This document shows positions 18,376-60,762 of a stretch of DNA of 64,000 nucleotides, in pieces. Where the stretch lies: assembly GCA_038145705.1 (NCBI GenBank), contig JAYQQF010000011.1, positions 43,753 through 107,752 of the forward strand, written 5' to 3'. This DNA comes from Alphaproteobacteria bacterium. Lineage in GTDB: Bacteria; Pseudomonadota; Alphaproteobacteria; SMXQ01. Position numbers and translations under genes: made by a program. Each line of letters opens with the position of its first letter. Position 1 is the first letter of the stretch. A model generated the notes under the pieces. It did not search any database and was not told the origin of the DNA. It worked only from the letters and a program-made list of their open reading frames with translations.

Positions 18376-18415
18376 AAAACAAGAAGGGCGTCGAACACCA
18401 GAGGGGGAGCCGCTC

Positions 18416-30132: not shown

Positions 30133-30151
30133 CGTTTCGGATACCCGAAAC

Positions 30152-31159: not shown

Positions 31160-31178
31160 GGGAAAGGTCTCCTGTAGG

Positions 31179-32186
31179 TTATTCGACCGCCTTGGCCGAA
31201 ACCGCGACCAGCTTGGCCGGGGTCTTGTAAAGTTCTTCAATCATCTTCTCGACGTCCTCGCCCTTCATCGGCGAGATGACCGTGCGGCCGGACCGCTTGG
31301 CGTCATCGAGGAACGGCTTGCCGTTGACCATGTCCCACATCGCCTTGCGCAGGGTGGCGAGCTTGCCCGCCGGGGTCTGCTTGGAGACGATGATCGGACG
31401 GAAGATGTCGCTGTGCGCCGTCAGCAGGTTGACGATCTGGCGCTTTTCGCCGGTCACGAGGTTGCCGACAAAGGGAACGTTGCCGATTTCCGGCATGGTG
31501 ACGCTGGAAACGCGGGCGAAGATGTTGATCTTCTTGTCCTTGATCCAGTTCTCCGGAATGCTGTCGTAGGAACCGCAGTCGCCGTCCAGCTCGCCCTTTT
31601 CGACGGCAAGACGCTGCTCGGCGGAACCGGGGTAACCGACGATCTGCTTCAGGTTGGCGCCGAACACGTTCTTCAGCACGGCGGCGTCGATGTAGTTGCT
31701 GGCGTTCTTGCCGGTGTGGCCGGTGGCGAACTGCTTGCGCTTGAGCAGGTCATCGAGCGTCTTGACGCCGACCGTGTGCCACGAATAGCAGACGCGCGCA
31801 TCGGCGGTCAGGCTGGCGACGAAGCTCACCTCGGTGAACTTCATTTTGACCTTCTTCGGCACGACCAGCGAATTCAGGACCTGGCCCGGGTTGAACATCA
31901 CCATGTAGGTGCCGTCGGCAGGCTGCGCCTTCAGCGACTGCACCGACTTCATCGAGCCCGCGCCCGGCAGGTTGCTGACGACGATATTGGGCTTGCCCGG
32001 CAGGTACTGGCCGAGGTTGCGCCCGGCGAGACGCCCGAACGCATCGAACCCGCCGCCGGCGGACGATCCCACCACGATGCGGACGTTCTTGCCGCCTGAA
32101 AAATCCTGGGCCGCGGCAACGCCCGCGAAGCCCGTCAGGGTGGAAAGGACGACTGCAGCAGTCAGGACACGATGATTGGTCTTCAT
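31179..32186 (-). CDS. TctC/Bug-family substrate-binding protein, paralog 3
   Basis: MKTNHRVLTAAVVLSTLTGFAGVAAAQD signal; FSGGKNVRIVVGSSAGGGFDAFGR; tandem with paralog 2 (19-nt spacer). Confidence 0.85.
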   Translation of the reverse strand: MKTNHRVLTAAVVLSTLTGFAGVAAAQDFSGGKNVRIVVGSSAGGGFDAFGRLAGRNLGQYLPGKPNIVVSNLPGAGSMKSVQSLKAQPADGTYMVMFNPGQVLNSLVVPKKVKMKFTEVSFVASLTADARVCYSWHTVGVKTLDDLLKRKQFATGHTGKNASNYIDAAVLKNVFGANLKQIVGYPGSAEQRLAVEKGELDGDCGSYDSIPENWIKDKKINIFARVSSVTMPEIGNVPFVGNLVTGEKRQIVNLLTAHSDIFRPIIVSKQTPAGKLATLRKAMWDMVNGKPFLDDAKRSGRTVISPMKGEDVEKMIEELYKTPAKLVAVSAKAVE

Positions 32187-43445: not shown

Positions 43446-44192
43446 TTGAAATACGCCCACCCCCGGTGTCTACTGGCGGGGATGCTACGCGCGCTTGTCC
43501 TTACGGTATTTATGGTCTTGTCGCTCACCGGTGCCGCCCGGGCCCAGGAGAAGGTCGATCTCGAACTGATCCTGATGGCCGACGTGTCGGGCAGCGTCAA
43601 TTACGAGGAATTTCGCCTGCAACGGCTGGGCTACGCGCAGGCTCTGCGCAACCCGCGCGTCCTGTCCGCCATCCGCAACGGACCCATAGGGCGCATCGCT
43701 GTTTCCTACGTCGAGTGGAGCGGCCATTTCCTGAAATCGGTGATCGTGCCGTGGACCGCCGTACGCGATCCGGCCGATGTCGAGAAAATCGCCCAGTTGC
43801 TGGAAACAGTGCCGCGCGAAATCTACGGCGGCGGCACCGCGGTCGGCAGCGCCATCCTCTACGGCGCCCAGTCGATCAACAACAACGCCTTCGATGGCAC
43901 GCGCAAGGTCGTCGATCTGTCCGGCGACGGCCCCGACAAGGACGGCCTGCCCGCAGCGGTCGGCCGCGACCAGGCGGTGGCGCAGGGTGTGACCGTCAAC
44001 GGGCTGCCGATCCTGGGCGACTTCCCGGGCCTCGACGTGTTCTTTCTCGATCACGTCATCGGCGGGCCGGGCGCCTTTTCCATCCCCGCGCGCGACTTCA
44101 AGGATTTCCAGTCGGCGATCCTGACCAAGCTGATCCGCGAAATCGCCGGCATCAACGACCCCGACGCGCCGCAGGCGGCCGAACGGCCCTAA
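43446..44192 (+). CDS. DUF1194 (vWA-like) domain secreted protein
   Basis: Signal peptide MLRALVLTVFMVLSLTGAARA (start TTG 43446 or ATG 43482); LILMADVSGSVNYEEF MIDAS-like motif. Confidence 0.65.
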   Translation: MKYAHPRCLLAGMLRALVLTVFMVLSLTGAARAQEKVDLELILMADVSGSVNYEEFRLQRLGYAQALRNPRVLSAIRNGPIGRIAVSYVEWSGHFLKSVIVPWTAVRDPADVEKIAQLLETVPREIYGGGTAVGSAILYGAQSINNNAFDGTRKVVDLSGDGPDKDGLPAAVGRDQAVAQGVTVNGLPILGDFPGLDVFFLDHVIGGPGAFSIPARDFKDFQSAILTKLIREIAGINDPDAPQAAERP

Positions 44193-45649
44193 GCGGCCGA
44201 GCGCCGCCCCATGCGCACCAGCATGGTGACGAAAACCACCGCCAGCACCAGCGGCAACAGGTTGAACGCATAAACCAGCGTCACCGCGCGGCCGACGTTT
44301 TCGGGCTCGGTCGCATCGCCAAGTCCGGCCATCGTCGAAATGCCGCCCGCGACGGCGGCGCCGAAGGCGGTGCCGAGCGAGCGCATGGAAGGCACGGCCG
44401 CCGACGTGATGCGTTCCTCGCCCTTGCGGGCATGGCCGATGGTGCGGGCAACGATATGCACGTTGTGGATGCCGACACCGATGCCGAGCACGAAGGCGGC
44501 GATCGCCAGGAATCCGAGCATCGGCTTCGCCGCAATCAGCGCCATGGTGCCGATGCCGACGAACATCAGGATGGGCCCCGCGCGCAGCGCCCAATCCTCG
44601 CGCCGGCCGGACCAGCCCGATACGGCGAAGGTGCCGAGCGTCCAGCCGAACGAAATGATGATGGCGATGAAGCTGATGAACAACGGCGTCACGCCGTGGA
44701 CGACCTGAAGCAGCAACGGCATGAACAGGTTCACCGAGGTCTGCGCCATGCCGCCCGTGAACAGCACCAGAAGCCCGAGCCCGACGGGCGAGCGCGGCGA
44801 AAAGGCCGCCGTCGGATAGAGCCGGTTGGCAGAGCGCGAATCGAGGCGCAGGGTCAGCCAGACGAGTGCGGCGGCGAGCACAAACAGCGCGATGCGCGGG
44901 GCAAGGTCATGAACCGGCCCCGACAGGCCGATGGCGAAAACGCCGGCCGCCAGCAGCGAAAGCCGCAGGAAGGGAATGGCCTGGGTGCGCGGAGGCTCGC
45001 CCGATGGCTCTTCCTCCGGAACGCGAAACCAGACGAGCGCCATGAAGATGAGCGCCAGAGGCACCATCGACCAGAACGAGCCGCGCCACCAGCCCAGTTC
45101 CGCGAAGCCGCCGCCGAGCGCGGGGCCGAGCAACTGGGCGATCATCCAGATGCCCTGCTGGGCGGCGATGATCCGTCGGCGCAAGGTTTCGTGAAACAGG
45201 CCCGCGATCAGGGCCATGCCGCCGCCGAAGATCAGCCCGCCGCCGTAACCCTGCACAAGGCGTGCGGCGCAAAGGGCGAACATGTTGGGCGCTAGCGCGC
45301 AGGCAATGGTGGCGACGAGGAAGATCGCCGCCGAAATAACGGTACCCCCGCGCCGCCCGCAGGCCGCCCACAACGGGCCGACGCTCGCCGTGCCGACAAT
45401 GGCGCCGACGGTGTAGAGCATGGAAGGCCAGGTGTAAAAATCGGCGCCGCCCACATCGGCGACGACGGTGGGCATGATGATGACGACGACGAGGATCTGC
45501 AGGGCGTGAACGATCACGCCCAGCATGACGATGGACGAATAAATGGCACGGCCGTCGCGGAACAGATCGCCCCAGGGGGCGGCCTGGGACGCGGACTTGG
45601 ACGTGGACTGGGCGGCGGATTCGCCTTTGTTTTCCGGTGTCTGGGTCAT
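44189..45649 (-). CDS. MFS transporter (DHA2/EmrB-like, 14 TM)
   Basis: 486 aa, multiple hydrophobic TM segments, MFS motif GRRGG-like loops. Confidence 0.8.
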   Translation of the reverse strand: MTQTPENKGESAAQSTSKSASQAAPWGDLFRDGRAIYSSIVMLGVIVHALQILVVVIIMPTVVADVGGADFYTWPSMLYTVGAIVGTASVGPLWAACGRRGGTVISAAIFLVATIACALAPNMFALCAARLVQGYGGGLIFGGGMALIAGLFHETLRRRIIAAQQGIWMIAQLLGPALGGGFAELGWWRGSFWSMVPLALIFMALVWFRVPEEEPSGEPPRTQAIPFLRLSLLAAGVFAIGLSGPVHDLAPRIALFVLAAALVWLTLRLDSRSANRLYPTAAFSPRSPVGLGLLVLFTGGMAQTSVNLFMPLLLQVVHGVTPLFISFIAIIISFGWTLGTFAVSGWSGRREDWALRAGPILMFVGIGTMALIAAKPMLGFLAIAAFVLGIGVGIHNVHIVARTIGHARKGEERITSAAVPSMRSLGTAFGAAVAGGISTMAGLGDATEPENVGRAVTLVYAFNLLPLVLAVVFVTMLVRMGRRSAA

Positions 45650-45762
45650 GGGCCGGCGCAGTTTGCCACGGGGGCGCGCAAAACAGCATCACTTTCCGCA
45701 AACAGGCCCGGACGCTAAACTGCATCCCGGCCCGGCAGCGGGCCCAAACGAGGGAGGCCGCC

Positions 45763-46584
45763 ATGCCCGATTCAGACCGCGCACCGCGTTTCGTCGAGGC
45801 CGATATGGCCTATATCGTCGAAGGCGAGGAAAAGCCGGAATCGCGCAGCTTCGGCGACGCCAGTTCCCTGCACACCCATACCGGCACCTACGAACAGCAC
45901 CGGGTGCGCATCGAAAACGGCCGCGGCATGGAGTTCGTGCTCGATCGCGAGGGTTTTCGCCTCGCGTCCCATCCCACGCAAATGCGCGACTTCTATGACG
46001 AAGACGAAGTCCGCGGCGTTTATTTCGGCGAACTCGAAGACCTGGTGAAGCGCGAAACGGGATGCGCGCGCGTTCACATCTTCGACCACACGCGACGCGC
46101 CGGCGACGAGGAAACCCGCGAAGCGCGCAAGGTCAAAGGCCCCGTGCGCCACGTGCACAACGACTACACCGAATGGTCGGGCCCCCAGCGCGTGCGCGAT
46201 CTTCTGCCCGCAGAGGCCGATGAATTGCTGAAGCATCGTTTCCAGGTCGTGCAGGTCTGGCGCGCCGTGCGCGGGCCGATCCTGTCGTCGCCGCTTGGCA
46301 TCTGCGATGCGCGCTCGATCGCGCCACGCGACCTGATCGCCACAGCGCGGGTCTATCCCAACCGGCGCGGCGAGATCTACCACGTCGCCTACAACCCCGC
46401 GCACAAGTGGTTTTATTTTCCGGAAATGACGCGCGACGAGGCGCTGGTCTTCAAGTGCTACGATTCGCGCAACGACGTGGCGCGCTTCACCATCCATTCG
46501 GCCTTCGCCGATCCGACGACGCCCGCGGGCGCGCCGCCGCGCGAAAGCATGGAAGCGCGGCTGCTCTGCTTCTTCGACGACTGA
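45763..46584 (+). CDS. hypothetical protein, possibly CmcJ/NvfI-family oxidoreductase
   Basis: ORF 45637..46584 trimmed to ATG 45763 (SD GGGAGG): MPDSDRAPRFVEADMAYIVEGEEKPE...; RVHIFDHTRR and VRHVHNDYT His-rich motifs; family from recall only. Confidence 0.45.
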   Translation: MPDSDRAPRFVEADMAYIVEGEEKPESRSFGDASSLHTHTGTYEQHRVRIENGRGMEFVLDREGFRLASHPTQMRDFYDEDEVRGVYFGELEDLVKRETGCARVHIFDHTRRAGDEETREARKVKGPVRHVHNDYTEWSGPQRVRDLLPAEADELLKHRFQVVQVWRAVRGPILSSPLGICDARSIAPRDLIATARVYPNRRGEIYHVAYNPAHKWFYFPEMTRDEALVFKCYDSRNDVARFTIHSAFADPTTPAGAPPRESMEARLLCFFDD

Positions 46585-46593
46585 AGCGCCGCG

Positions 46594-47733
46594 CTATTCG
46601 GCGGCGGCCTTGTAGGTGCAGAACGGGTGGTATCCCCCCATCCTGCAATCGGCCCCGGCGGTCTTGAGGGATTTTTCGAACTCTTTGTGAATATTGGGAT
46701 TTTCGTCGACGAACTCGATCTGGCTGCCGCCTTCCTTGATGCTGGTGAAGGTCTCGTTGCGCCGCTTGGCCGATTTCATGAAACGGAAGCGCCAGTTGTT
46801 CCAGCGCAGCGCCAGGTAACGCGCGGGCTTCGCACCCGAATTGAAATGCTGGTGGAACCACTGGTCGGGCGGCACCACGACGCTGCCCGGGCCCCAGTCG
46901 ACCCGGCGAGGCTCTTCGCCGTCGCGCCACAGGATCGAGTAGCCCTGGCCCGACACGATGATGACATGGGCGCCCGGGCCATGACGGTGGCCCTTCTTGT
47001 AGGTGCCGACCGGGAATTCCGAGATATGCGCGCCCATCGTGTTGCCGGCGAGATCGAACTTCATGTTCGTCGACCCCTTGCCGCGCTCGGAGTAATCAGC
47101 GAGATGCAGGGTCTTGAGATCCGGCACGAAGTTGGTCGTCATGAAGAAGCGGCCGAAGATTTCCTGCTTGCCGAAATATTCGTCCTCATTCGCGTTGAAG
47201 CGGTCCTTGAAGACGTAATCGCTGTTGAAGATGAAATCGGGGCTGTGAAACAGGTTCATCACGAAACAGCAATTCGTCACCGCGTAATAGCGCACGACGT
47301 CGCTGCCCGACGAATTGAAGTGCTGGTAGTTGGCGTTGATGGGGATGGAGAACAGGCTGCCCGGCCCCCATTCGAACGTATGCTTGCGCCCGTCGCGCTG
47401 CCAAACCGTGGTCGCCCCCTGCCCCTTGGTGACGTAGACGGTTTCCTCATAGAGGTGCTTCTGAGGCTTCGTCTTGCCGCCCGCCGGAATTTCGCAGATG
47501 TAGGCGTCGTTGGTGTCGCCCGCCCCGTCGAGGATGACGAAGGCCGCGGGAACGCCCTTGAGGTCCCAGTGGCCGAGTTCGACCGCGTTGATGTCCTTGA
47601 TGAAGAAATCGGTGATGACGGGAATGCCCTGGGCATTGCGCCATTCAAGGAACGTGTCGATGGGCAGCGGCTGCCAATCCTTGTCCTTGGGGTCGGCGCC
47701 CTTGGCGGCCTTCGGGAAGGGAAGCTGCGACAT
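46594..47733 (-). CDS. bicupin dioxygenase-like protein (gentisate 1,2-dioxygenase-like)
   Basis: ORF 46594..48180 trimmed to MSQLPFPKAAKGADPKDKDW (SD GGAGGA); two cupin halves, GHRHGPGAHVIIVSGQG metal motif. Confidence 0.6.
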   Translation of the reverse strand: MSQLPFPKAAKGADPKDKDWQPLPIDTFLEWRNAQGIPVITDFFIKDINAVELGHWDLKGVPAAFVILDGAGDTNDAYICEIPAGGKTKPQKHLYEETVYVTKGQGATTVWQRDGRKHTFEWGPGSLFSIPINANYQHFNSSGSDVVRYYAVTNCCFVMNLFHSPDFIFNSDYVFKDRFNANEDEYFGKQEIFGRFFMTTNFVPDLKTLHLADYSERGKGSTNMKFDLAGNTMGAHISEFPVGTYKKGHRHGPGAHVIIVSGQGYSILWRDGEEPRRVDWGPGSVVVPPDQWFHQHFNSGAKPARYLALRWNNWRFRFMKSAKRRNETFTSIKEGGSQIEFVDENPNIHKEFEKSLKTAGADCRMGGYHPFCTYKAAAE

Positions 47734-47848
47734 GGTCCTGTATCCTCCGGTTTCCGGCACAAAGAAGTGAAATCCTAGTCCCGCTTCGGCCGCACGATAA
47801 GCGCGCCCGCGCGCAAAACAGACTTGCCCAAAGTTCGGGGCCTGAAAT

Positions 47849-49543
47849 TCAGGCCTTGTGGCCGTAATCGCGCGCGGCCGCCGCGGCTGAGACATAGCCG
47901 CGGGCAACGTCGCGGGCGATGGCGTCGCGCGACCGTTCGGCCGGGTCGCCCCAACCGCCGCCGCCGCCCGTCTCCAGAACGACACGGTCACCGGCCTCAA
48001 GACGATAACCCTTGGCCTTGCAGACCGTCTCGGGTGCGCCGCCCGCCTTGCGATAGACCGTGACGCAACCGGGCAGCGCATCCTTGCCGCCGGCGACGCC
48101 CCAGGGCGCGAACTTGGTGCGATCGAGGTTGGTCTGCAGCAGGCAGGGCGAAATGATGTCATAGACCTTGCGGAAGCCAAGCCCGCCGCGATAGCGCCCG
48201 GCCCCCGCCGAATCCTGGCGCAGGGTAAACTCGCGGATGCGGATGGGCAGGATCGTTTCCTGCAGTTCCAGCGGGATCAGACGCGTATCGCCATGGGCCA
48301 TGGTGCGGAACGGCCCGGCACCGTCGCCGAAGGCCGATGCGCCCCAGCCGCCGTGGCCGCTGTCGTGACCGTTGAAGGGCCTGCCGTCGGGCCATTTGCC
48401 GTAAAGGCGGAAGCCCGAATGGGTGGCGAAATGGCCGCCGGTGGCGAGCTCCGGCACCGCCTTGCCGAGCGCGCGGATCACCGTGTCGATCACGGTCGGG
48501 AACGGCATCGAGTAATTGCCCATCGGCGCCGTCGCATCGGCGCTGAGGATGGTGCCCTCGGGCAGCACCAGCCTGAGCGGGCGGAAGATGCCTTCGTTCG
48601 CCGGCTCGTTCGGCATGATCAGGTACTTGAAGGCGACGCGCGCCGTCGTCACGCCGCCGCCGAAATAGCCCGAATTGACGCAGCCCTTCTGCTGGGGTGC
48701 GAGGCCCGAGTAATCCACCGTCACCTCGTCGCCCGCGATCACCACCCTGACGCGGACCGGGATCGGCGTATCGTTGTCGCCGTCGTTGTCGAGGAAGGTT
48801 TCGGCCTCGTAGGTGCCGTCGGGAAGCTCGCGGATGCGGGCGCGGGCCGCCGCCTCGCCCTGGTCGAGGATTGTCTCGACCGCGCCGAAGAAGGTCGACA
48901 AGCCGTAGCGGTCGGCGAGCGCCGCGACATGATCGCGCCCCAAAATGCAGCCCGCGAGCTGGGATTCGATGTCGCCCAACAGGTCCACGGGAAAGCGCGT
49001 GTTGCTTTCGATGATGCGATAGACCTCTTCGATCGGCTCGCCCTTCGACCACAGCTTGATGCTGCGCAGCTGCAGGCCTTCCTCGAAAATGTCCGAAGAC
49101 CGCGGTGTCGAGCCGCCGATGTCGATCCAGTGCACGTTGATGGCGAAGAACCCGATCAGCGTGGCGCGCTCGGGCCCCGCATAGATCGGCGTGTACATCA
49201 CCGTGTTGTTGAGGTGCTGGCCCTGCACCGCGGCATGGTTGCACACGATGACGTCGCCATGGTGCAGGCGGTCGCGCCCATAGACCTTGAGGCCGTCGCG
49301 CACCGCCGTACCGACCGAATCGGCGACGAAGGGCGGCATGCCGCCCTTGCATTGGGCCATCAGGTTGCCGTCGGCGGTGACGATGCCGACGGCGAAGTCC
49401 TTGTATTCGTAGATATAGGGGCTGAAGGCCGTGCGCGTGATATTGGCGTCGATCTGGTCGGTGATCGAGATCAGGCCATGACGGATGACCTCAAGGGTGA
49501 TCGGATCGATGCCGGTCCCGGGCTTGTCTTTCGTCGCGTCCAT
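47849..49543 (-). CDS. hyuB: hydantoinase B/oxoprolinase family protein (HyuB)
   Basis: ORF 47849..49612 trimmed to MDATKDKPGTGIDPITLEVIRHGL...; HyuB family conserved blocks. Confidence 0.85.
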   Translation of the reverse strand: MDATKDKPGTGIDPITLEVIRHGLISITDQIDANITRTAFSPYIYEYKDFAVGIVTADGNLMAQCKGGMPPFVADSVGTAVRDGLKVYGRDRLHHGDVIVCNHAAVQGQHLNNTVMYTPIYAGPERATLIGFFAINVHWIDIGGSTPRSSDIFEEGLQLRSIKLWSKGEPIEEVYRIIESNTRFPVDLLGDIESQLAGCILGRDHVAALADRYGLSTFFGAVETILDQGEAAARARIRELPDGTYEAETFLDNDGDNDTPIPVRVRVVIAGDEVTVDYSGLAPQQKGCVNSGYFGGGVTTARVAFKYLIMPNEPANEGIFRPLRLVLPEGTILSADATAPMGNYSMPFPTVIDTVIRALGKAVPELATGGHFATHSGFRLYGKWPDGRPFNGHDSGHGGWGASAFGDGAGPFRTMAHGDTRLIPLELQETILPIRIREFTLRQDSAGAGRYRGGLGFRKVYDIISPCLLQTNLDRTKFAPWGVAGGKDALPGCVTVYRKAGGAPETVCKAKGYRLEAGDRVVLETGGGGGWGDPAERSRDAIARDVARGYVSAAAAARDYGHKA

Positions 49544-49553
49544 CGGCTTCCCC

Positions 49554-51605
49554 CTATTTCGCCCCGCACCGGATGCGGATTTCGCGCATCTTGCCCACCT
49601 CGAAACTGTCACCGGGTGCGACGATGGTGGTCGAGCCGTATTCCTCGATCACCGCCGGGCCTTCGGCCGCGAACCCTGCCGGCAGGCTGTCGCGCTCATA
49701 GACGCGCGTCTCGACCATGCCGCCCGCAGCGCCGAAATAGACGGGCCGTCTCGCCTGCGGGCCCGCGGCCACCGCCCTGCGCGGCAGGCGGGCGGTATCG
49801 GGGCGCTGGCGGCGCGCGAAGGCCGACAGGTGCAGGGCCTGGAACTCGGCTTGCGCCTTGTCGTCGGCATGGCCGTAGCGGCGCTTGTAGTCGTGCTGGA
49901 AGGCGGCGCGGATGGCGGCGACATCGGCAAGCCCCGTCACCGGCACCTTGATGTTGTGGCGCTGGCCGCGATAGCGCATTTCGGCGTGATGCTCGAAGCT
50001 GATATCGGTGGTGCCGAACTCGGCGGCGAGCGCCGCGGCTGCTTCCTTTTCCATCTCCTCGAAGCGGCCGCGGATCGCGGCGACGGTATCGGGGCCAAGC
50101 ACGCCCGTGAAAGTCACCGAGGTATCGAGGCGGGCATCGGCCAGCAGCATGCCGATGGCGGAGAAGTTGCCGGGTTCCGGCGGGATGATCACGGTCGGAA
50201 TGGACAGTTCGCGCGCCAGTGCGGACGCGTGCAGCGGCCCGCCGCCGCCATAGGCGAAGAGCGCGAAGTCGCGCGGATCGAGGCCGTGCTCGACGGAGAC
50301 GCGCCGTATCGCGCCGGCCATGATGACCGTGGCGATAGACAGGATTCCCTCGGCCATGCGGATGAGGCCGTCCTCACCATCAAAGCCGAGCGGGCCGGCG
50401 ATCTTCCCGGCGATGGCGCGCCGCGCCGCTTCGGTGTCGAGGCCGAGCTCGCCGCCCAGAAAATGCGAAGGATTGAGGCGGCCCAATACAAGATTCGCAT
50501 CGGTCACGGTCGGCGCCTCGCCGCCGCGCCCGTAGCAGACGGGACCCGGCGTCGAGCCTGCGCTTTCCGGGCCGACATGCAGGCGCTTCTGGTCGTCGAG
50601 CCAGGCGATGGAGCCGCCGCCCGAGCCCACTTCGACGATGTCGATGACCGGCGACTTGATCGGGAAGCCCTTGATGTAGCCGTTGGCGTAATAGACCGAT
50701 TCGACCGAGAAGCGGCCGTTTTCCACCAGCGCGCACTTGGCCGTGGTACCGCCCATGTCGAAGGCGACGACGTTGTCGATACCGAGCGCCTCGGCATAGG
50801 CGCCGGCGCCGATGCAGCCGCCGATCGGCCCCGATTCGACCAGCGCGATGGGCTGGCGGCAGGTGCGCTCCACCGACAGGAGGCCGCCGTTCGATCCCAT
50901 CATGAACAGCGAGCCGTCGAAACCCTTGTCCTGCATTTCGGCCTCGAGGCGGCGAATGTAGGTATTCACCTGCGGGCCGACATAGGCGTTGGCGGCGACG
51001 GTGGCGCAGCGCTCGTATTCGTACCATTCCCGCGTCAGTTCCGTCGAAACGGTGACGTAAGCTTCGGGCAGCAGGCGGCGCAGGATTTCGGCGGCGCGGT
51101 CTTCGTGGGCAGGATTGAGGTAGGAGTTCATGAAGAAGATGCCGACCGCTTCGACCCCCAGGCCGCGCAGTTCCCCGGCCAGCTTTTCGAGCGCCCCTTC
51201 GTCGAGCGGCGTGATCACCTGGTTTCCGGCGTCGATGCGCTCGGCGACCTCGAGGCGCAGGTCGCGGGGGATCAGCGCCTCATCGCGCTGGTAGTAGAGG
51301 TCGAAGGGATCGGGCCGGTTGCCGCGCGCGATTTCGAGCACGTCGCGAAAGCCCTCGGTCGTCACCAGCGCCGTCCTGGCGCCCTTGCGCTGAATCAGCG
51401 AATTGATGACCAGCGTCGTGCCGTGGTTGAGGAACGTCGCCGAAGCAGGCGCCACTTTCGCCTTGGCGAAACAGTCGAGAATGCCGTCGACGAAATTGCC
51501 GTAGGTCGTCGGGCTCTTGGTATAGAGGACGCTCTGGCGTTCGTGATCGAAAGCGACAAGATCGGTAAAGGTTCCGCCGATATCGACGGCAACGACGTAA
51601 GCCAT
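49554..51605 (-). CDS. hyuA: hydantoinase A/oxoprolinase family ATP-dependent protein (HyuA)
   Basis: 683 aa; MAYVVAVDIGGTFTDLVAF ATPase (ASKHA) N-terminus. Confidence 0.9.
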   Translation of the reverse strand: MAYVVAVDIGGTFTDLVAFDHERQSVLYTKSPTTYGNFVDGILDCFAKAKVAPASATFLNHGTTLVINSLIQRKGARTALVTTEGFRDVLEIARGNRPDPFDLYYQRDEALIPRDLRLEVAERIDAGNQVITPLDEGALEKLAGELRGLGVEAVGIFFMNSYLNPAHEDRAAEILRRLLPEAYVTVSTELTREWYEYERCATVAANAYVGPQVNTYIRRLEAEMQDKGFDGSLFMMGSNGGLLSVERTCRQPIALVESGPIGGCIGAGAYAEALGIDNVVAFDMGGTTAKCALVENGRFSVESVYYANGYIKGFPIKSPVIDIVEVGSGGGSIAWLDDQKRLHVGPESAGSTPGPVCYGRGGEAPTVTDANLVLGRLNPSHFLGGELGLDTEAARRAIAGKIAGPLGFDGEDGLIRMAEGILSIATVIMAGAIRRVSVEHGLDPRDFALFAYGGGGPLHASALARELSIPTVIIPPEPGNFSAIGMLLADARLDTSVTFTGVLGPDTVAAIRGRFEEMEKEAAAALAAEFGTTDISFEHHAEMRYRGQRHNIKVPVTGLADVAAIRAAFQHDYKRRYGHADDKAQAEFQALHLSAFARRQRPDTARLPRRAVAAGPQARRPVYFGAAGGMVETRVYERDSLPAGFAAEGPAVIEEYGSTTIVAPGDSFEVGKMREIRIRCGAK

Positions 51606-51648
51606 CCCCTGCTCCGGCTGAGGCGTTAAGTACTGCAGGACGCAGGTA

Positions 51649-52815
51649 TCATTGCGCCTTTTTCTTCTTCTTCGGTCCCGGGCCGCCCGCGGCCAGCCAG
51701 TACTTGTTCCATTCCTCGATCACGCGCTTCGACAGCTCCTCGGCATTGTCGTCCAGCACGGCGATCTTCTTGCCGGCGACGGCTTCGGGATAGAACAGGA
51801 ATTCCTTGCGCAGCAGCTCTTTGTGCGACGGGGGCGAATAGTTGCCCCAGTACTGGGCGATCTGGCCTTCCTTGGACAGGAACCAGTTGACGAAGACCTT
51901 GGCGGCGTTGGTATGCGGGCTGTTCTTGACGATCGCCATGTCGGAAATCGTGTAGGGCACGGGTTCCGGACAATGGAAGGCGACGGGGGCGCCCTTCTGC
52001 GCTTCCGGCCCGACGCGCATCATGGCCGACGGCACCGCCGCGCTGGCCTCGCCGAGCGAAACAAGGTTGATGCCGGCGTTCAGGCCTTCCTTGCGCAACT
52101 GCGGCGACAGTTTGCCGAACAGGTCGCGCGTGTAGGCCTTGCCCCAGTCGTCACCCTTCGCCGTCCAGACGTTCAGCAGCCACAGGTTGGCGCGGTTGAG
52201 CAGCGCCAGGTTCTTGTCGGCGAATTTCGGATTCGTCAACAGGTCGTCCCAGGTTTTGGGCAGGTCCGCCTTGCTGATCTTCTTGGTGTTGTAGGACATG
52301 CACCAGTAGCGCGAGCGCACGGCGACGGCGATGTGGTCCTTCTGGCGCACCTCGGCCGGGAAGTTGGCATAGCCGGGCAGGTCATCGAGCGGAATCAGGG
52401 CGCCCGCCTCGCGGAATTTGTAGACGCTGCCCGACATGTCCATGATCACGTCGGCGATCACGCGGCCTTGGGTGAAGGCGGCGAGCGGGCGCACCCAGCG
52501 GCGCTCGGCCGTGTTGACTTCCTCGTGGCGGAAATTGATGCCGGGATACCGTTCCTTCAGGACACCGGCGATTTTGGCCCAGGCCTTCGGCCGGGTAGAG
52601 GTGTAGATCACCACCTCCTTTTCCTTCCTGGCGGCATCGAGCCAGGCCTGCGGCACGGCCAGTTCCTTGTCGAGGCCCGACAGGATCGAGGCGTCGAGCT
52701 TGAGCGCGGCCAGCATCTTCTGCGTCGCCTGCGGCAGTTCCGCCCCCTGGGCAGGCACGGCGAAAGCGGCGGCAGCAAGCACGCAGGCGCGAAGGATCGC
52801 GGATTTTCCGGTCAT
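51649..52815 (-). CDS. orphan ABC transporter periplasmic substrate-binding protein (family 1) with poly-Lys C-terminus
   Basis: MTGKSAILRACVLAAAAFAVPAQGAE signal; homologous to SBPs at 7838/9996; ends GGPGPKKKKKAQ; no permease/ATPase adjacent. Confidence 0.8.
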   Translation of the reverse strand: MTGKSAILRACVLAAAAFAVPAQGAELPQATQKMLAALKLDASILSGLDKELAVPQAWLDAARKEKEVVIYTSTRPKAWAKIAGVLKERYPGINFRHEEVNTAERRWVRPLAAFTQGRVIADVIMDMSGSVYKFREAGALIPLDDLPGYANFPAEVRQKDHIAVAVRSRYWCMSYNTKKISKADLPKTWDDLLTNPKFADKNLALLNRANLWLLNVWTAKGDDWGKAYTRDLFGKLSPQLRKEGLNAGINLVSLGEASAAVPSAMMRVGPEAQKGAPVAFHCPEPVPYTISDMAIVKNSPHTNAAKVFVNWFLSKEGQIAQYWGNYSPPSHKELLRKEFLFYPEAVAGKKIAVLDDNAEELSKRVIEEWNKYWLAAGGPGPKKKKKAQ

Positions 52816-52896
52816 TTCTCTCTCCCCAGTATTATTCCGGCGCTTGCGCCGTTTTGTGCATTTTCGAATATCGCAAAGGGATGCGAAAGCAAAAAT

Positions 52897-53949
52897 TCAA
52901 CCGAGCCCGTAGAGCGCCCGGGCATTGTCCCAGAGAATCTTGCGCACGGACGTCTCCGAAAGGCCCTTCTTGCCCTTGAGGTTACGGATCGCCTCGATCT
53001 CGCTCGAAAAATCGGCATGGCCGTAATCGGTGCCGATCACGAGGTTGTCCTCGCCCGCGACCGAAATCACGTGCTCGAGGTCATCATAGGTCTGGCAGGT
53101 GACGTAGACGCGATTGGCGGCCAGCAGGTTTTCCGGCAGCCGCCTGCCCTGCTTGAGAAAGCGCTGGCGCACGTCGGCAACGAGGAACGGCACCCAGTCG
53201 GCGCTGGCCTCGATGATGCCCCAGCGCAGCCTCGGGAACTTCGCGGGCGTGCCCGCCATCAGCAGAGAATGCAGCGCGCCGATCATCGGCAGCTTGAACT
53301 TGGTGAAGGTCGTGTCGCGCGTGTAGAAGTCATGAACCTGGAAACTGCCGTTCCCCAGATGCACGCAGATGGCGAGGTCGAGCTCCTGCGCCAGTTCGTA
53401 CATGGGATGGAAATAAGGGTCCGACAGCGGCAGTTCGCATTCGAGCGGGCGCATGAACACCGCGCAGGCGCCGTTGTCGCGCGCAAAGCGCAGCTCCTCA
53501 CCCACCCGGTCCATGTCGGAAAGAGGCGGCACGGCAGCCCAGCGCAGGCGGTCGGGCGCCTGCTTCCAGATTTCGGCGAGCCAGCGGTTGTAACTCTTGG
53601 ATAAGGCGTGATCGAGGCGCGGGTTGTTGGCGATCGGGCGCAGCAGCAGGGTCGGAAAAAGAATCTGGATTTCGACGTCGAGCTCGTCCATGTGGCGCAG
53701 GCGGGCAGAAACATCGCGCATTTCGCGCGAGTCCTCGGGCGTATTCGAGCCGAGGTTGCGGTCCCGGTTGTGGACGCGGCCATTGATCACCCAGAACTGC
53801 TGCTGGACGCGGCCCTCGCTGTTGCGGATTTCGCGGCCCGACACGCGCTCGGTGATCATCGGCATCAGGTCGGGCGCCTCGCGCGCGACCGTGTCCCAGG
53901 TGGCCATGGTTTCGATGACATGGGCATCGGCATCTATGGCGCGCATCAC
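52897..53949 (-). CDS. amidohydrolase-2 family protein (ACMSD/LigW/LigI-like metal-dependent hydrolase/decarboxylase)
   Basis: 350 aa; MMRAIDADAHVIE N-terminal HxH metal motif; ...HLGNGS..., DYGHAD C-terminal His/Asp. Confidence 0.75.
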   Translation of the reverse strand: MMRAIDADAHVIETMATWDTVAREAPDLMPMITERVSGREIRNSEGRVQQQFWVINGRVHNRDRNLGSNTPEDSREMRDVSARLRHMDELDVEIQILFPTLLLRPIANNPRLDHALSKSYNRWLAEIWKQAPDRLRWAAVPPLSDMDRVGEELRFARDNGACAVFMRPLECELPLSDPYFHPMYELAQELDLAICVHLGNGSFQVHDFYTRDTTFTKFKLPMIGALHSLLMAGTPAKFPRLRWGIIEASADWVPFLVADVRQRFLKQGRRLPENLLAANRVYVTCQTYDDLEHVISVAGEDNLVIGTDYGHADFSSEIEAIRNLKGKKGLSETSVRKILWDNARALYGLG

Positions 53950-54084
53950 TTCCTCCCCCTGCTTGGCGGCGCCATTCTTCGCGGCGCTCGCCTCCTTTAT
54001 ACGCGCGCCCGGTCCAACCGTGAAGGCGGCCAGAAGCTTTTCGAGCTTGTTCTGCCCGCCCCGGAGGATGACAATGTTTCCACA

Positions 54085-54969
54085 ATGACGTTAACGGCCA
54101 CGCCCCTTCATCCCCTGTTCGCTGCCCGCATTTCCGGGCTCGACATGCATCATGCGACCGATCCGGCGACGCTCGCCGAACTGGTCGCCCTGATGGACCG
54201 CTTTGCCGTCTGCGCCGTCGGCCACGACCGGCCACTCAGCAACGAAGAGCACATCGCCTTCAGCCTGCAGCTCGGCCCCATGGATCGCGGCAAGTCGCCC
54301 AAGATCGCGGGCACCGGCATCCGCATCCCCCATAACGAGATCGTCGACCAGAGCAACATGGACCAGGACGGCGCCATCTATGCCGAAGGCGACCGGCGAC
54401 TTGCCTTCAAGCGCGCCAACCGCCTGTGGCACACGGACATGTCGTTCCGCCAGGTGCGCGCCACCTATTCGCTGCTGTCGGCCCATGTCGTGCCGCCTGA
54501 AGGCGGGGATACCGACTTCATCGACATGCGCGTGGTCTATGACGCGCTGCCCGAAGCGACGAAGGCGCGCCTCGACGGCCTGGTCGCCGAACACAGCTAC
54601 TGGTATTCGCGCAAGCTCGGCGGCGGCCCCGACCCGACCGAGACCGAGCGCGCCTCGCGCCCGCCCGCCCGCCACCCGGTGGTCTATGTCTGCCCGCGCA
54701 CCGGGCGGAAGTCGCTCTATATCGCTTCGCACGTCTCGGGCATCGTCGGCTGGCCCGCAGACGAAGCACGCTCGCTGATCGACGAGCTGATGGCCTTCGC
54801 AACGCAGCCCGAATATGTCTACAGCCACAAGTGGCGCGCGGGCGACGTGGTGATCTGGGACAACCTGATCACGCTGCACCGCGCAACACCCTTCGACGAC
54901 ACGCGCTACCGCCGCGACATGCGTCGGGCCACCTGCCGCGAGGCCCCGGTCCATTCGGTTCCCGCCTGA
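54085..54969 (+). CDS. TauD/TfdA-family Fe(II)/2-oxoglutarate-dependent dioxygenase (TfdA-like)
   Basis: ORF 53608..54969 trimmed to MTLTATPLHPLFAARISGLDMHHA...; LWHTDMSF (HxD), HRATPFDD. Confidence 0.75.
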   Translation: MTLTATPLHPLFAARISGLDMHHATDPATLAELVALMDRFAVCAVGHDRPLSNEEHIAFSLQLGPMDRGKSPKIAGTGIRIPHNEIVDQSNMDQDGAIYAEGDRRLAFKRANRLWHTDMSFRQVRATYSLLSAHVVPPEGGDTDFIDMRVVYDALPEATKARLDGLVAEHSYWYSRKLGGGPDPTETERASRPPARHPVVYVCPRTGRKSLYIASHVSGIVGWPADEARSLIDELMAFATQPEYVYSHKWRAGDVVIWDNLITLHRATPFDDTRYRRDMRRATCREAPVHSVPA

Positions 54970-55054
54970 TCCCGCAATGTTGATGGACGCGGGTAGGCGC
55001 CGCGCCTAATCTTCCCGTTACCGCCGGCAACAAGGCGGATCGGAGGAGACGTTC

Positions 55055-56074
55055 ATGCTGCTCGGCGCGCTTTTCGCCGTATTGTCCTCGGCTACCTTTG
55101 CCCTCAACGGCGTCTCGGTCCGGCGCGGCGTGCTCACCGGCTCCGTCGCCCAGGCGATGGCTATTACCGTGCCGATGGGCGTGCCCATCTTCTTCGTTGC
55201 AGCGCTTGCCACCGGCGGCCTCGGCGCGCTGTTCGATTTTTCCGGCCTGGCGCTTTTTTATCTCGCGCTGGCCGGCGTGTTCCACTTCGTCTGGGGGCGC
55301 TACTGCAACTACCGCGCCACCAAGGCCATCGGCGGCAACGCGGTGACGCCGCTGCAGCAGCTCGACTTCCCGCTCAAGCTGGCGCTTGCCATGATCTTCC
55401 TTGGCGAAAAGCTGACCGTGCTCAGCCTCGTCGGCATCGCCCTCATCTTCCTTGGCGGCGCCGTCGCCATCAAGCCGCGCGGCAAGCGCGCCGCCCAGAA
55501 GGAAGAAAAGAAGGAAGAAAAGAAGGAAGCCCCGAAAGAGGGATCGGCCCCGGTTTTCGTCCCCCAGTATGTCGAGGGCTATACCTTCGCCCTGCTGTCG
55601 ATCACCGGCTATGGGGTGAGCCCCTTGTTCATTCGCCTTGCGCTTGAGGACGCGGGCATCGCCGCAAGCCTCGCCGGCGGGCTTGTGTCCTACATGGCGG
55701 CGACCGTCGTCATCATCGCCATGGCCTGCCTGCCCGGACGCTTCGCCCATATCCGTTCGATCAACACGGTATCGGCGCGCTGGTTCATGGCGTCCTCGCT
55801 GTTCGTCGGCGTGTCGCAGATCTTCCGCTACATGGCGCTGGCGCTGGCGCCGGTCATCGTCGTCGCCACCGTGATGCGCGGGGCAGGCCTGTTCAAGCTG
55901 CTGTTCAACTGGTTCGTCAACCGCCAGTACGAAATCTTCGAGGCGCGCCTGCTGGTCGGCATTTTCATCTCGATTGCGGGCGGCGTCGCCATGACCATAA
56001 GCCCGGCCTTCGTCGCGGAAATCCTGCCGCTTCCGGCATCGGCCCTTGGTACGCTCGAGTGGCGCTGGCCCTAG
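55055..56074 (+). CDS. DMT-superfamily (EamA-like) membrane transporter with KE-rich inter-domain linker
   Basis: 339 aa, two 5-TM EamA-like halves separated by KRAAQKEEKKEEKKEAPKEGSAP. Confidence 0.7.
   Translation: MLLGALFAVLSSATFALNGVSVRRGVLTGSVAQAMAITVPMGVPIFFVAALATGGLGALFDFSGLALFYLALAGVFHFVWGRYCNYRATKAIGGNAVTPLQQLDFPLKLALAMIFLGEKLTVLSLVGIALIFLGGAVAIKPRGKRAAQKEEKKEEKKEAPKEGSAPVFVPQYVEGYTFALLSITGYGVSPLFIRLALEDAGIAASLAGGLVSYMAATVVIIAMACLPGRFAHIRSINTVSARWFMASSLFVGVSQIFRYMALALAPVIVVATVMRGAGLFKLLFNWFVNRQYEIFEARLLVGIFISIAGGVAMTISPAFVAEILPLPASALGTLEWRWP
55498..55529 (+). repeat. tandem 12-nt repeat (gaaggaagaaaa) x2.7 within DMT transporter gene
   Basis: gaaggaagaaaagaaggaagaaaagaaggaag read directly; encodes EEKKEEKKE. 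Confidence 0.8.
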
Positions 56075-60672: not shown

Positions 60673-60762
60673 TGGCGGTGGGGGTGGGATTCGAACCCAC
60701 GGTACCCTTACGGGCACAACGGTTTTCGAGACCGCCCCGATCGACCGCTCCGGCACCCCACC
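60673..60762 (-). tRNA. tRNA-Ser (anticodon CGA), class II with long variable arm, encoded CCA
   Basis: Reverse complement GGTGGGGTGCCGGAGCGGTCGATCGGGGCGGTCTCGAAAACCGTTGTGCCCGTAAGGGTACCGTGGGTTCGAATCCCACCCCCACCGCCA: 7-bp acceptor stem, anticodon loop CTCGAAA, T-loop GGTTCGAATCC. Confidence 0.85.

What the first reader, a model, noticed from the sequence alone, without database searches (positions are those of the whole stretch)
46594..53949. Five-gene operon: amidohydrolase-2 - orphan SBP - HyuA - HyuB - bicupin dioxygenase
ATP-dependent hydantoinase/oxoprolinase-family pairs open 5-membered lactam/hydantoin rings or carboxylate ketones (acetone/acetophenone carboxylases). Here the pair is sandwiched between an ACMSD/LigI/LigW-type amidohydrolase and a gentisate-dioxygenase-like bicupin, with a dedicated family-1 SBP. 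This combination suggests ATP-dependent activation (carboxylation or ring opening) of an aromatic or heterocyclic substrate followed by ring cleavage. I do not recall a characterised pathway with this exact composition.
Basis: inference. Interest (0 to 1): 0.5.

Follow-up and report, generated by a model that had tools for sequence, protein, structure and literature searches.

The report
Lactam-opening enzyme cluster with two oxygenases
An uncultured soil alphaproteobacterium carries a small gene cluster that probably imports a ring-shaped amide, opens it with an ATP-driven enzyme and oxidises it with two metal oxygenases; the first gene was misread as a hydrolase, and the substrate remains unknown.

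Summary
The five genes are real, all on the minus strand with 10-115 bp gaps. Two start codons need correcting.

- **First gene.** It is not ACMSD/LigI/LigW-like. Its closest solved relatives are all amidohydrolase-related dinuclear oxygenases (AROs). It keeps every ARO metal ligand, in a Gly-for-Pro motif variant.
- **HyuAB.** It groups with ATP-dependent lactamases/hydantoinases, not carboxylases. One conserved metal-binding Asp is Asn in this family.
- **Bicupin.** This large uncharacterised family keeps a 3-His site. Its similarity to gentisate dioxygenase is marginal.

Conservation:
- The full set occurs only where HyuB is at least about 84% identical.
- Some of those relatives have a complete ABC transporter between the binding protein and HyuA, so the "orphan" binding protein looks like a reduced form.
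- A conserved promoter-like element upstream of the binding-protein gene suggests the ARO gene is a separate transcription unit.
- None of 79 more distant bicupin loci has HyuAB. Their neighbours are phthalate-dioxygenase-like Rieske oxygenases, UbiD decarboxylases and molybdenum hydroxylases.

Verdict: a plausible catabolic module for a heterocyclic or aromatic amide, assembled from recurring parts. I found no characterised counterpart. The substrate is unknown. Interest is moderate.

The parts
52897..53946 (-). PF04909 protein (349 aa), read here as an amidohydrolase-related dinuclear oxygenase (ARO)-like enzyme. It carries D7-A8-H9, H196, E246 and D307-Y-G-H310-A-D312.
   Evidence: Pfam. 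All best matches among solved structures are AROs: 4dzi, 8sm9, PtmU3, SfbO, 8sm8, 8sm7, AibH2 and DitZ. The ligand columns are invariant in 27 homologues. The ARO motifs are defined in PMC13154177. Start codon (identical 349-aa protein).
52860..52889 (-). Conserved promoter- or operator-like element CTTTCGCA-N16-GAAAAT, 45 bp upstream of the binding-protein start. It contains the inverted repeat TCGCA-N6-TGCGA.
   Evidence: It is conserved upstream of the orthologous binding-protein gene in L012, L013, L016, L007 and L174, although the upstream gene differs. All 7 occurrences in 2.28 Mb of held sequence are at this position. It overlaps the only sigma-70-like hit in the region. Function is inferred.
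51649..52815 (-). Periplasmic solute-binding protein (388 aa, signal peptide ...AVPAQG/AE) of the SBP_bac_1/6/8 type. No permease or ATPase is adjacent.
   Evidence: Pfam and NCBIfam. Only distant solved relatives: a PLP-binding protein and Fe3+-binding proteins at E about 1e-7. Orthologues of 83-86% identity in L007, L174 and L175 are followed by a second binding protein; the fused permease and TOBE ATPase that follow it are seen in L007 and L174.
49554..51605 (-). HyuA, the ATP-binding (ASKHA) subunit of a hydantoinase/oxoprolinase-family enzyme (683 aa).
   Evidence: Three Pfam domains. The motifs DIGGTFTD, DMGGT and GSTPGP are visible in the translation, as defined in PMC8453981. Scores against solved structures: fused 'N-methylhydantoinase' 7hk5 419 bits, CapA 383, acetophenone carboxylase 272, acetone carboxylase 205.
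47849..49543 (-). HyuB, the metal-site subunit (564 aa). Its metal site is D49/H110/N113/H138, with Asn where characterised members have Asp.
   Evidence: Pfam. Scores: 7hk5 248 bits, CapB 184, acetophenone carboxylase delta 69, acetone carboxylase alpha 42. N113 is invariant in 20 family members. A 32% paralogue has Asp at that position.
46594..47733 (-). Bicupin (379 aa) of a large uncharacterised family. The N-terminal cupin keeps H93/E97/H138. The C-terminal cupin keeps H249/H251/H296 (3-His) plus H256 and H294. The tail keeps C363-x-M365...C372.
   Evidence: Pfam Cupin_2 x2. Invariant columns in 31 homologues. The 3-His site is kept in 38-44% paralogues, whereas the N-terminal site and the Cys tail are not. 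AF2 model pLDDT 87; the nearest folds are generic bicupins at TM about 0.47.

Best explanation
The locus is a catabolic module for an imported cyclic amide (a lactam or hydantoin), probably one that carries or derives from an aromatic or heteroaromatic acid.

Proposed steps:
1. The periplasmic binding protein captures the compound. It hands it to one of the same-type ABC permease/ATPase pairs encoded elsewhere in the window.
2. HyuA phosphorylates the amide in its iminol form with ATP, and HyuB hydrolyses the activated ring. This follows the mechanism proposed for caprolactamase and 5-oxoprolinase.
3. The bicupin uses a 3-His metal centre, most likely Fe(II), in its C-terminal barrel. It cleaves or otherwise oxidises either the ring-opened product or the precursor.
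4. The upstream PF04909 protein is a dinuclear (Fe2 or Mn/Fe) O2-dependent hydroxylase, not a hydrolase or decarboxylase. It acts on the same or a related compound.

Transcription of the binding-protein, hyuA and hyuB genes (and perhaps the bicupin gene) probably starts at its own conserved promoter. The ARO gene is then a separate, usually neighbouring unit.

What is shown: gene content, the family placement of each protein, ligand conservation and neighbourhood statistics. What is inferred: the chemistry, the order of steps, that the four enzymes share one substrate, and what that substrate is.
For: - **HyuAB is hydrolase-like.** It has all the ATP motifs and scores far higher against lactamase/hydantoinase relatives than against carboxylases. 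HyuA scores 419 and 383 bits against 272 and 205. HyuB scores 248 and 184 against 69 and 42. NCBIfam gives CapA 476 against ApcC 283. No gene for an extra carboxylase subunit is present.
- **The first gene is ARO-like.** Homologues of 54-56% identity sit directly upstream of GMC oxidoreductases. One of them also has a small Rieske ferredoxin two genes upstream, which is the published ARO signature.
- **The genes are linked in the close clade.** HyuA-HyuB-bicupin is conserved in every relative where it can be checked: L007/8, L013 and L016. The ARO gene lies upstream in L012, L013, L016, L174 and L175.
- **A second, independent HyuAB-bicupin link exists.** Paralogous bicupins (38-44% identical) lie downstream of 75-77% HyuB orthologues in L014, L019 and L021, and upstream on the opposite strand in L010/L020.
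- **The context is aromatic.**
- **The binding-protein gene has its own conserved upstream element**.
- **Compatible ABC pairs are in the window**, at 3520-6269 and 11148-13864.
Against: - No substrate is identified.
- From the bicupin side the link is rare: 0 of 79 metagenome loci with 43-72% homologues have HyuAB.
- From the HyuB side, the 66-79% orthologues mostly have only binding proteins or transporters as recurrent neighbours. The enzymes may therefore be independent modules in a mosaic catabolic region.
- The ARO C-terminal motif is D-x-G-H-x-D, not the published D-x-P-H-x-D/E. The fold alone does not separate AROs from ACMSD, and no Rieske ferredoxin is nearby.
- HyuB has Asn at a metal-ligand position where every characterised member has Asp, so its chemistry may differ.
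- One bicupin homologue lies in a Desulfobacterales MAG beside UbiD and hydrogenase maturation genes. That fits poorly with an obligately O2-dependent role.
- Co-transcription is not demonstrated.
Confidence: 0.5

Rival explanations
1. Mosaic neighbours. The binding protein and HyuAB form a self-contained salvage unit for a simple carboxylated lactam, such as 5-oxoproline or a close analogue, whose product enters central metabolism directly. The bicupin and the ARO serve other substrates and are adjacent only because the region is a catabolic island.
For: Across 80 HyuB loci the only recurrent neighbours are weakly TctC/Bug-like binding proteins (37 loci), fused ABC permeases (22), SBP_bac_8 proteins (16), ATPases and NMT1 proteins. 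Bicupin homologues pair with other enzymes and never with HyuAB in 79 loci. ARO homologues pair with GMC or FAD oxidoreductases. The conserved promoter-like element separates the ARO gene from the rest.
Against: HyuA-HyuB-bicupin is kept in every close relative that can be checked, with a 74-115 bp spacer and no terminator. A second, paralogous bicupin is independently linked to 75-77% HyuB orthologues. The ARO gene stays upstream across the clade despite rearrangements between it and the binding-protein gene.
Confidence: 0.27
2. An ACMSD/LigI/LigW-type decarboxylase or lactonase works with a HyuAB that may carboxylate a ketone, as acetophenone carboxylase does, and a gentisate-type dioxygenase completes the pathway.
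For: The first gene has the PF04909 fold, and ACMSD structures are among the top fold matches. There are weak hits to gentisate and 5-aminosalicylate dioxygenase models. The surroundings are aromatic catabolism.
Against: The first gene has D-A-H instead of H-x-H or E-x-H, plus the extra H-x-D loop ligands of dinuclear oxygenases. Decarboxylases match only at E 0.03-0.09. Carboxylase scores are much lower, HyuB is 564 aa against 684-776 aa for the carboxylase subunits, and there are no extra subunits. The gentisate dioxygenase model scores 20.7 against a cut-off of 442.
Confidence: 0.08
3. The bicupin is not an oxygenase. It is an O2-independent metal enzyme (isomerase, tautomerase, decarboxylase or hydrolase), or a partner that needs an ASKHA-type ATPase.
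For: One homologue lies in a Desulfobacterales MAG beside UbiD. In seven metagenome loci an EutA-like ASKHA ATPase is encoded close to the bicupin, immediately beside it in six, and HyuA is also an ASKHA ATPase. Some NCBI records name the family 'ethanolamine ammonia lyase-activating protein'. The nearest folds are oxalate decarboxylase and MncA, not dioxygenases.
Against: The invariant 3-His site is typical of Fe(II) dioxygenases such as gentisate and salicylate dioxygenases. This rests on established knowledge; see the review PMC4019311 listed. The commonest enzymatic partners are oxygenases and hydroxylases that make hydroxylated aromatics. Fold matches at TM about 0.47 are uninformative.
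Confidence: 0.12

Closest known systems
Caprolactamase CapAB (Pseudomonas jessenii) and the related two-subunit ATP-dependent lactamases/hydantoinases (OplAB, HyuAB of Pseudomonas NS671, N-methylhydantoinase)
   Same: Two subunits of the same sizes and domain content. The ATP-binding motifs are present. Three of the four metal ligands are present. These are the best-scoring characterised relatives.
   Different: It scores far below the CapA and CapB equivalog cut-offs (476 and 220 against 1000). Asp102 (CapB numbering) is Asn. The gene order is A-B rather than B-A. It is associated with a periplasmic binding protein, a bicupin and an ARO-like gene, and the substrate is unknown.
Amidohydrolase-related dinuclear oxygenases (PtmU3, AibH2, SfbO, DitZ; putative 4DZI)
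   Same: PF04909 fold and an N-terminal D-x-H. His196, Glu246 and the Asp/His/Asp loop residues align with the metal ligands. All the best solved-structure sequence matches are AROs. A 56% homologue has a small Rieske ferredoxin close by.
   Different: The loop reads D-Y-G-H-A-D, with Gly invariant instead of Pro, so the published motif filter would miss the family. No Rieske ferredoxin is in the window. The gamma-1 residue is Ala. Metal content and activity are untested.
Gentisate 1,2-dioxygenase-type bicupin ring-cleaving dioxygenases
   Same: Two cupin barrels, an H-x-H...H (3-His) site, and genomic company of Rieske hydroxylases and other enzymes of aromatic-acid catabolism.
   Different: Sequence similarity is marginal (E about 1e-4 over about 70 residues). 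The conserved 3-His site is in the C-terminal barrel. There is an extra conserved Cys/Met/His tail. The fold search does not rank these dioxygenases first.
Anaerobic indoleacetate pathway IaaCE of Aromatoleum aromaticum, listed in PMC8453981 as a 'hydantoinase-like hydrolase'
   Same: A precedent for a HyuAB-type enzyme inside an aromatic or heterocyclic catabolic pathway. PMC8453981 names it only as a homologue. That it acts on an oxindole-type lactam is my recollection, not something I checked.
   Different: I made no sequence comparison. That pathway is CoA-dependent and anaerobic, and no bicupin or ARO is known in it. This is a lead, not a test.

Membership tests
Amidohydrolase-related dinuclear oxygenases (ARO) | PF04909 (Amidohydro_2) TIM-barrel fold | tested here: met
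   Pfam E 2.5e-21. AF2 model pLDDT 89.6, with TM 0.76-0.78 to 4dzi, PtmU3 and DitZ.
Amidohydrolase-related dinuclear oxygenases (ARO) | N-terminal D-x-H on the first beta-strand (PMC13154177) | tested here: met
   The sequence reads MRAIDADAHV. D7, A8 and H9 are invariant in 27 homologues, and strand E4-10 in the model covers them.
Amidohydrolase-related dinuclear oxygenases (ARO) | C-terminal D-x-P-H-x-D/E motif, taken literally | tested here: not met
   The window has D307-Y-G-H310-A-D312, with Gly invariant in the family. The three functional residues D, H and D are present and align with SDYPHWD of SfbO, SDYPHLE of PtmU3 and SDWPHGE of 4dzi. Only the non-ligand Pro is replaced.
Amidohydrolase-related dinuclear oxygenases (ARO) | Remaining metal-1 and bridging ligands (His and Glu) | tested here: met
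   H196 (AICVHLG) aligns with the His in VSIHIG of PtmU3 and LCVHFG of SfbO. E246 (IIEAS) aligns with the Glu in IAEAG and FIEHD. Both are invariant.
Amidohydrolase-related dinuclear oxygenases (ARO) | Redox-active dinuclear Fe2 or Mn/Fe cofactor and O2-dependent activity | not testable with these tools
   This needs metal analysis, UV/vis or EPR spectroscopy and activity assays.
ACMSD/LigW/gamma-resorcylate-type decarboxylases and the LigI lactonase (PF04909 non-redox enzymes) | N-terminal H-x-H (or E-x-H) mononuclear site, and closest similarity to these enzymes | tested here: not met
   The window has D-A-H. The phmmer E-values to ACMSD, LigW and 2,3-DHBA decarboxylase are 0.03-0.09, and gamma-resorcylate decarboxylase 3s4t gives 3.4e-5, against 5e-15 to 1e-7 for AROs. 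PMC13154177 states that non-redox members lack both ARO motifs.
ATP-dependent lactamase/hydantoinase (HyuAB/CapAB/OplAB type) | HyuA with Hydant_A_N, Hydantoinase_A and Hydant_A_C domains and the ATP motifs DxGGTxTD, DxGGT and GxxPGP | tested here: met
   Pfam. DIGGTFTD, DMGGT and GSTPGP are present in the translation. The motifs are defined in PMC8453981.
ATP-dependent lactamase/hydantoinase (HyuAB/CapAB/OplAB type) | HyuB metal site Asp/Glu-His-Asp-His (CapB D41, H99, D102, H124) | tested here: not met
   The window has D49, H110, N113 and H138, so three of four are kept. Asp102 is replaced by Asn113, which is invariant in the family.
Caprolactamase (NCBIfam equivalogs CapA/CapB) | Score above the curated cut-off (1000 bits each) | tested here: not met
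   The scores are 476.3 and 220.2 bits.
Acetone/acetophenone carboxylases | Extra subunits, a long (684-776 aa) HyuB-like subunit, and a high score to the Apc or Acx models | tested here: not met
   There is no additional small gene. HyuB is 564 aa. ApcC scores 283 against a cut-off of 1500, and ApcD 71 against 1500. Acetone carboxylase alpha scores 42 bits.
Canonical 5-oxoprolinase (OPLAH/OplAB) | Phylogenetic placement with experimentally shown 5-oxoprolinases | not tested
The closest solved protein, 7hk5, is a fused 1288-aa protein named 'N-methylhydantoinase' whose substrate I do not know.
Gentisate 1,2-dioxygenase | TIGR02272 score above the cut-off (442) | tested here: not met
   The score is 20.7 bits, E 1.7e-4. 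The best solved match is 3bu7 at E 6.9e-5 over residues 223-292 of the truncated query used in that call.
Gentisate 1,2-dioxygenase | 3-His Fe(II) site in a cupin barrel of a bicupin | tested here: met
   H249, H251 and H296 are invariant, including in the 38-44% paralogues. Metal identity is untested.
Complete binding-protein-dependent ABC importer | Permease and ATPase genes encoded next to the binding protein | tested here: not met
   Only 43 bp separate the binding-protein gene from hyuA. Relatives L007 and L174 have a second binding protein, a permease and an ATPase there, and L175 shows at least the second binding protein. Same-type pairs lie elsewhere in the window.

The most novel reading that the evidence does not exclude
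The cluster encodes an undescribed aerobic route for a stable heterocyclic lactam, for example an oxindole-, pyridone- or imide-type compound derived from plant or lignin material. ATP-driven ring opening by a HyuAB clade with an altered (Asn) metal site would be coupled to a new 3-His bicupin ring-cleaving dioxygenase family. A new ARO subfamily with the D-x-G-H-x-D motif, which the published motif filter does not capture, would supply a hydroxylation step.
Probability: 0.22. Interest if true: 0.6.

Novelty: new variant of a known kind. Interest (0 to 1): 0.4.

Why it matters
- **Enzymology.** ATP-dependent lactamases are few, and they are wanted for opening stable lactams such as nylon monomers. 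A widespread clade (66-98% identical across Alphaproteobacteria, Binatia, Chloroflexota and Gemmatimonadota MAGs) with an altered metal ligand is an untested source of new specificities.
- **Annotation.** The first gene shows that the published ARO motif filter (D-x-P-H-x-D/E) misses at least one conserved family that has every ligand. Such genes are still annotated as 'hydrolases'.
- **The bicupin family.** About 5,900 database clusters match it, it is over 60% identical across phyla, and it accompanies many peripheral aromatic-acid enzymes. Nobody has assigned it a reaction.
- **Limits.** None of this overturns a principle. It is a set of well-defined targets for experiment, not a surprise in kind.

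Tried and rejected
- **Promoter and terminator scan of 45500-55200.** One promoter-like and ten terminator-like hits, no more than in shuffled sequence.
- **Rfam and tRNA scans.** Nothing at the locus.
- **Foldseek of the bicupin model against PDB.** Only generic bicupins (oxalate decarboxylase, MncA, vicilins) at TM about 0.47, so it says nothing about function.
- **Foldseek of the ARO model.** The fold does not separate AROs from ACMSD. The argument therefore rests on sequence and ligands.
- **Plasmid collection search with HyuB.** The best match is 43% identical, so there is no close cultured relative with useful annotation.
- **Literature searches.** Searches on hydantoinase with cupin and amidohydrolase, on N-methylhydantoinase structure, on the bicupin's NCBI name, on HyuAB with TctC, and on bicupin with Rieske found no description of this combination. 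The Variovorax iad paper mentions no lactamase or cupin.
- **Creatinine pathway idea.** L010 has creatinase-like and isochorismatase genes downstream. I dropped the idea because those genes are not adjacent to HyuAB and are not conserved.
- **My first bicupin start was wrong.** I used 47706, which is 9 codons short. It was corrected to 47733.
- **My early view of the ARO gene was revised.** I first thought it was not co-conserved because it was absent from L007. L174 and L175 show that it is upstream across the clade.

Full report
**1. Observation**

The window has 63-69% G+C and many spurious ORFs. Third-position G+C and homology pick out five real genes on the minus strand within 46594-53949.

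| Gene | Coordinates | Length |
|---|---|---|
| PF04909 Amidohydro_2 | 52897-53946 | 349 aa |
| Family-1-type periplasmic binding protein | 51649-52815 | 388 aa |
| HyuA | 49554-51605 | 683 aa |
| HyuB | 47849-49543 | 564 aa |
| Bicupin | 46594-47733 | 379 aa |

- Pfam and NCBIfam confirm every domain call.
- The gaps between genes are 81, 43, 10 and 115 bp, and each start has a GGAG-type ribosome-binding site.
Homologues fix two starts differently, at 53946 and 47733.
- The nearest database relative is an uncultured alphaproteobacterial MAG, with HyuB 98% identical (L012).

**2. The first gene is an oxygenase-type PF04909 protein**

- Its best matches among solved structures are 4dzi, 8sm9, PtmU3, SfbO (8sm6), 8sm8, 8sm7, AibH2 and DitZ, at E 5e-15 to 1e-7. 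ACMSD, LigW and related decarboxylases match only at E 0.03-0.09.
- Those top matches are the amidohydrolase-related dinuclear oxygenases (AROs) described by the Rittle laboratory (PMC10811679, PMC13154177).
- The 2026 paper defines AROs by an N-terminal D-x-H and a C-terminal D-x-P-H-x-D/E. It states that characterised hydrolases and decarboxylases of the fold have neither.
- The window protein has D7-A8-H9 and D307-Y-G-H310-A-D312. His196 and Glu246 align with the remaining ligands of SfbO and PtmU3.
- All of these residues, including the Gly that replaces Pro, are invariant in 27 homologues down to 51% identity.
- So every ligand is present but the literal motif is not. The published filter would have missed this family.
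- Homologues of 54-56% identity sit directly upstream of GMC oxidoreductases. One of them also has a 107-aa Rieske ferredoxin two genes upstream. That is what one expects if a hydroxylase makes an alcohol.
- Fold comparison does not discriminate: ACMSD and the AROs all give TM 0.70-0.78.
- The window has no small Rieske ferredoxin, only three large Rieske oxygenases.

**3. HyuAB**

- HyuA carries the three ATP-site motifs.

| Comparison | HyuA (bits) | HyuB (bits) |
|---|---|---|
| Fused 'N-methylhydantoinase' 7hk5 | 419 | 248 |
| Caprolactamase | 383 | 184 |
| Acetophenone carboxylase | 272 | 69 |
| Acetone carboxylase | 205 | 42 |

- The NCBIfam ranking is the same, and both subunits fall far below the caprolactamase cut-offs.
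- With no extra subunit gene and a 564-aa HyuB, a hydrolytic ring-opening role is much more likely than carboxylation.
- One detail departs from all characterised members. The metal-ligand Asp (CapB Asp102) is Asn113, invariant in the family and in its HyuB' paralogue. A 32% paralogue keeps Asp.
- The family is very conserved: 66-98% identity in 80 GTDB loci from Alphaproteobacteria, Binatia, Chloroflexota, Gemmatimonas and others.
- It has no close cultured, plasmid-borne relative. The best is 43% identical.

**4. Bicupin**

- About 5,900 database clusters match it. The listed ones are 62-92% identical across several phyla. Their names are generic, or the odd 'ethanolamine ammonia lyase-activating protein'.
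- Invariant residues give a 2-His-1-Glu site in the N-terminal barrel, a 3-His site (H249/H251/H296) in the C-terminal barrel, and a Cys-x-Met...Cys tail.
- Only the 3-His site survives in the 38-44% paralogues.
- Similarity to gentisate dioxygenase is marginal. The AF2 model (pLDDT 87) finds only generic bicupins.

**5. Neighbourhood conservation**

*Seen from HyuB* (80 GTDB loci plus look-ups):

- The binding protein, HyuA, HyuB and the bicupin, followed by a convergent CmcJ/NvfI-like gene and an MFS gene, occur together only where HyuB is at least about 84% identical.
- Loci L007/8 and L174 carry a second binding protein, a fused permease and a TOBE ATPase between the binding-protein gene and hyuA. 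L175 shows at least the second binding protein before its contig ends. L174 also has an extra HyuB' there.
- The window, L012, L013 and L016 lack all of these. The 'orphan' binding protein is therefore most simply a reduced form.
- Two ABC pairs of the same type lie elsewhere in the window.
- The ARO gene is directly upstream in the window, L012 and L174. In L013, L016 and L175 it lies two genes further upstream, separated by a haem-oxygenase-like PF14518 gene and a TctC-like gene.
- Among the 66-79% orthologues the recurrent neighbours are weakly TctC-like binding proteins (37 loci), ABC permeases (22), SBP_bac_8 proteins (16), ATPases and NMT1 proteins.
- L014, L019 and L021 have a CMD-family gene and a paralogous bicupin downstream of HyuB. 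L010/L020 has a paralogous bicupin upstream on the opposite strand.

*Seen from the bicupin* (79 metagenome loci, 43-72% identical):

- None has HyuAB.
- The closest ones read binding protein > Rieske > bicupin > permease > ATPase.
- The Rieske protein resembles phthalate dioxygenase, E 9e-57.
- Other partners are VdcC-like UbiD decarboxylases (13 loci), molybdenum hydroxylases (13), NMT1 proteins (15) and EutA-like ATPases (7).
- Earlier look-ups showed LigB, LigC-like, RraA-like and Amidohydro_2 genes of the protocatechuate 4,5-cleavage type nearby.
- The window contains the same families.

**6. Transcription units**

- A 30-nt element, CTTTCGCA-N16-GAAAAT, lies 45 bp upstream of the binding-protein start.
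- It is found at the same place in L012, L013, L016, L007/8 and L174, whatever gene lies upstream. It occurs nowhere else in 2.28 Mb of held sequence. L175 has a diverged version.
- I read it as the promoter or operator of the unit that starts with the binding-protein gene. On that reading the ARO gene is a separate unit.
- The HyuB-bicupin spacer shows no terminator and is only modestly conserved.

**7. Interpretation**

- The best-supported reading is a module for uptake and ATP-dependent opening of a cyclic amide. It is joined to two O2-dependent metalloenzymes and set in a region devoted to aromatic and heteroaromatic acids.
- The components recur elsewhere in other combinations. That fits modular assembly and leaves real room for the rival reading in which the enzymes do not share a substrate.
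- I found no characterised system with this composition.
- I rate it a new variant of known kinds, of moderate interest. Its value lies in three concrete, testable oddities:
  - the Gly-variant ARO family;
  - the Asn-variant HyuB clade;
  - the unassigned bicupin family.

Noticed in passing
L174 16472-21050; also L028, L033, L034, L047, L054, L062, L064, L066, L073 and L083: Many loci carry a HyuB'-HyuA-HyuB triple. The second HyuB-like gene is 56-66% identical to the window HyuB and lies upstream of hyuA. This suggests a three-subunit enzyme in much of the family. The window lacks HyuB'.
   Followed up: partly
L122 4333-5847; also L128, L150, L154, L164, L165 and L172: An EutA-like ASKHA ATPase (NCBIfam EutA, E 1.5e-105, below cut-off) is encoded close to bicupin homologues in seven metagenome loci, immediately beside them in six. 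This may be the origin of the NCBI name 'ethanolamine ammonia lyase-activating protein' for the bicupin.
   Followed up: partly
window 46594-46650 (bicupin residues about 360-379): The tail G-A-x-C363-x-M365-G-x-Y-H-P-x-C372 is conserved in the bicupin family but lost in the 38-44% paralogues. It could be an additional metal or redox site.
   Followed up: no
window 1-36000: The rest of the window is a catabolic island with the same families that accompany the bicupin elsewhere:
- Rieske/LigXa_C at 6450-7796 (+), 18368-19714 (+) and a partial copy at 1-682 (-)
- LigB at 8982-9890 (-)
- binding proteins at 7838-8959 (+) and 9996-11123 (+)
- two ABC permease/ATPase pairs (3520-6269 on the minus strand, 11148-13864 on the plus strand)
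- a second TauD at 15014-15883 (+)
- UbiD at 21756-23588 (-)
- a TPP enzyme at 23522-25288 (-)
- a molybdenum hydroxylase at 25354-27819 (+)
- three TctC-like genes (20596-21543, 29966-31168, 31182-32156, all on the minus strand)

   Followed up: partly
window 45763-46584 (+) and 44189-45649 (-): A CmcJ/NvfI-family oxidoreductase gene (NCBIfam 307 bits) converges on the bicupin gene with 9 bp between the stop codons. An MFS transporter gene diverges from it. The pair is syntenic in L007, L013 and L016.
   Followed up: partly
L013 4294-5097, L016 1029-1772, L175 6289-7032: A haem-oxygenase-like, CADD-like PF14518 'iron-containing redox enzyme' gene follows the ARO gene in three relatives. It is absent from the window, L012 and L174.
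   Followed up: no
window 47780-47830 (-) and L016 about 8305-8350: The HyuB-bicupin spacer has a stretch of about 41 nt (…GGCAAGTCnGTTTTGC…) shared by the window and L016 but absent from L013 and L007.
   Followed up: no
window 60673-60762 (-): A tRNA-Ser(CGA) gene is the only RNA family match in the window.
   Followed up: no
L093 1-9053: A 62% ARO homologue lies near two 43% homologues of the window's binding protein and a UbiD decarboxylase, with no HyuAB. The link between the ARO and this binding protein may therefore be older than the HyuAB link.
   Followed up: no
L005 5416-8360 (Desulfobacterales MAG): A 64% bicupin homologue follows a UbiD decarboxylase and a MarR regulator gene, next to hydrogenase maturation genes, in a lineage that is usually anaerobic.
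   Followed up: no
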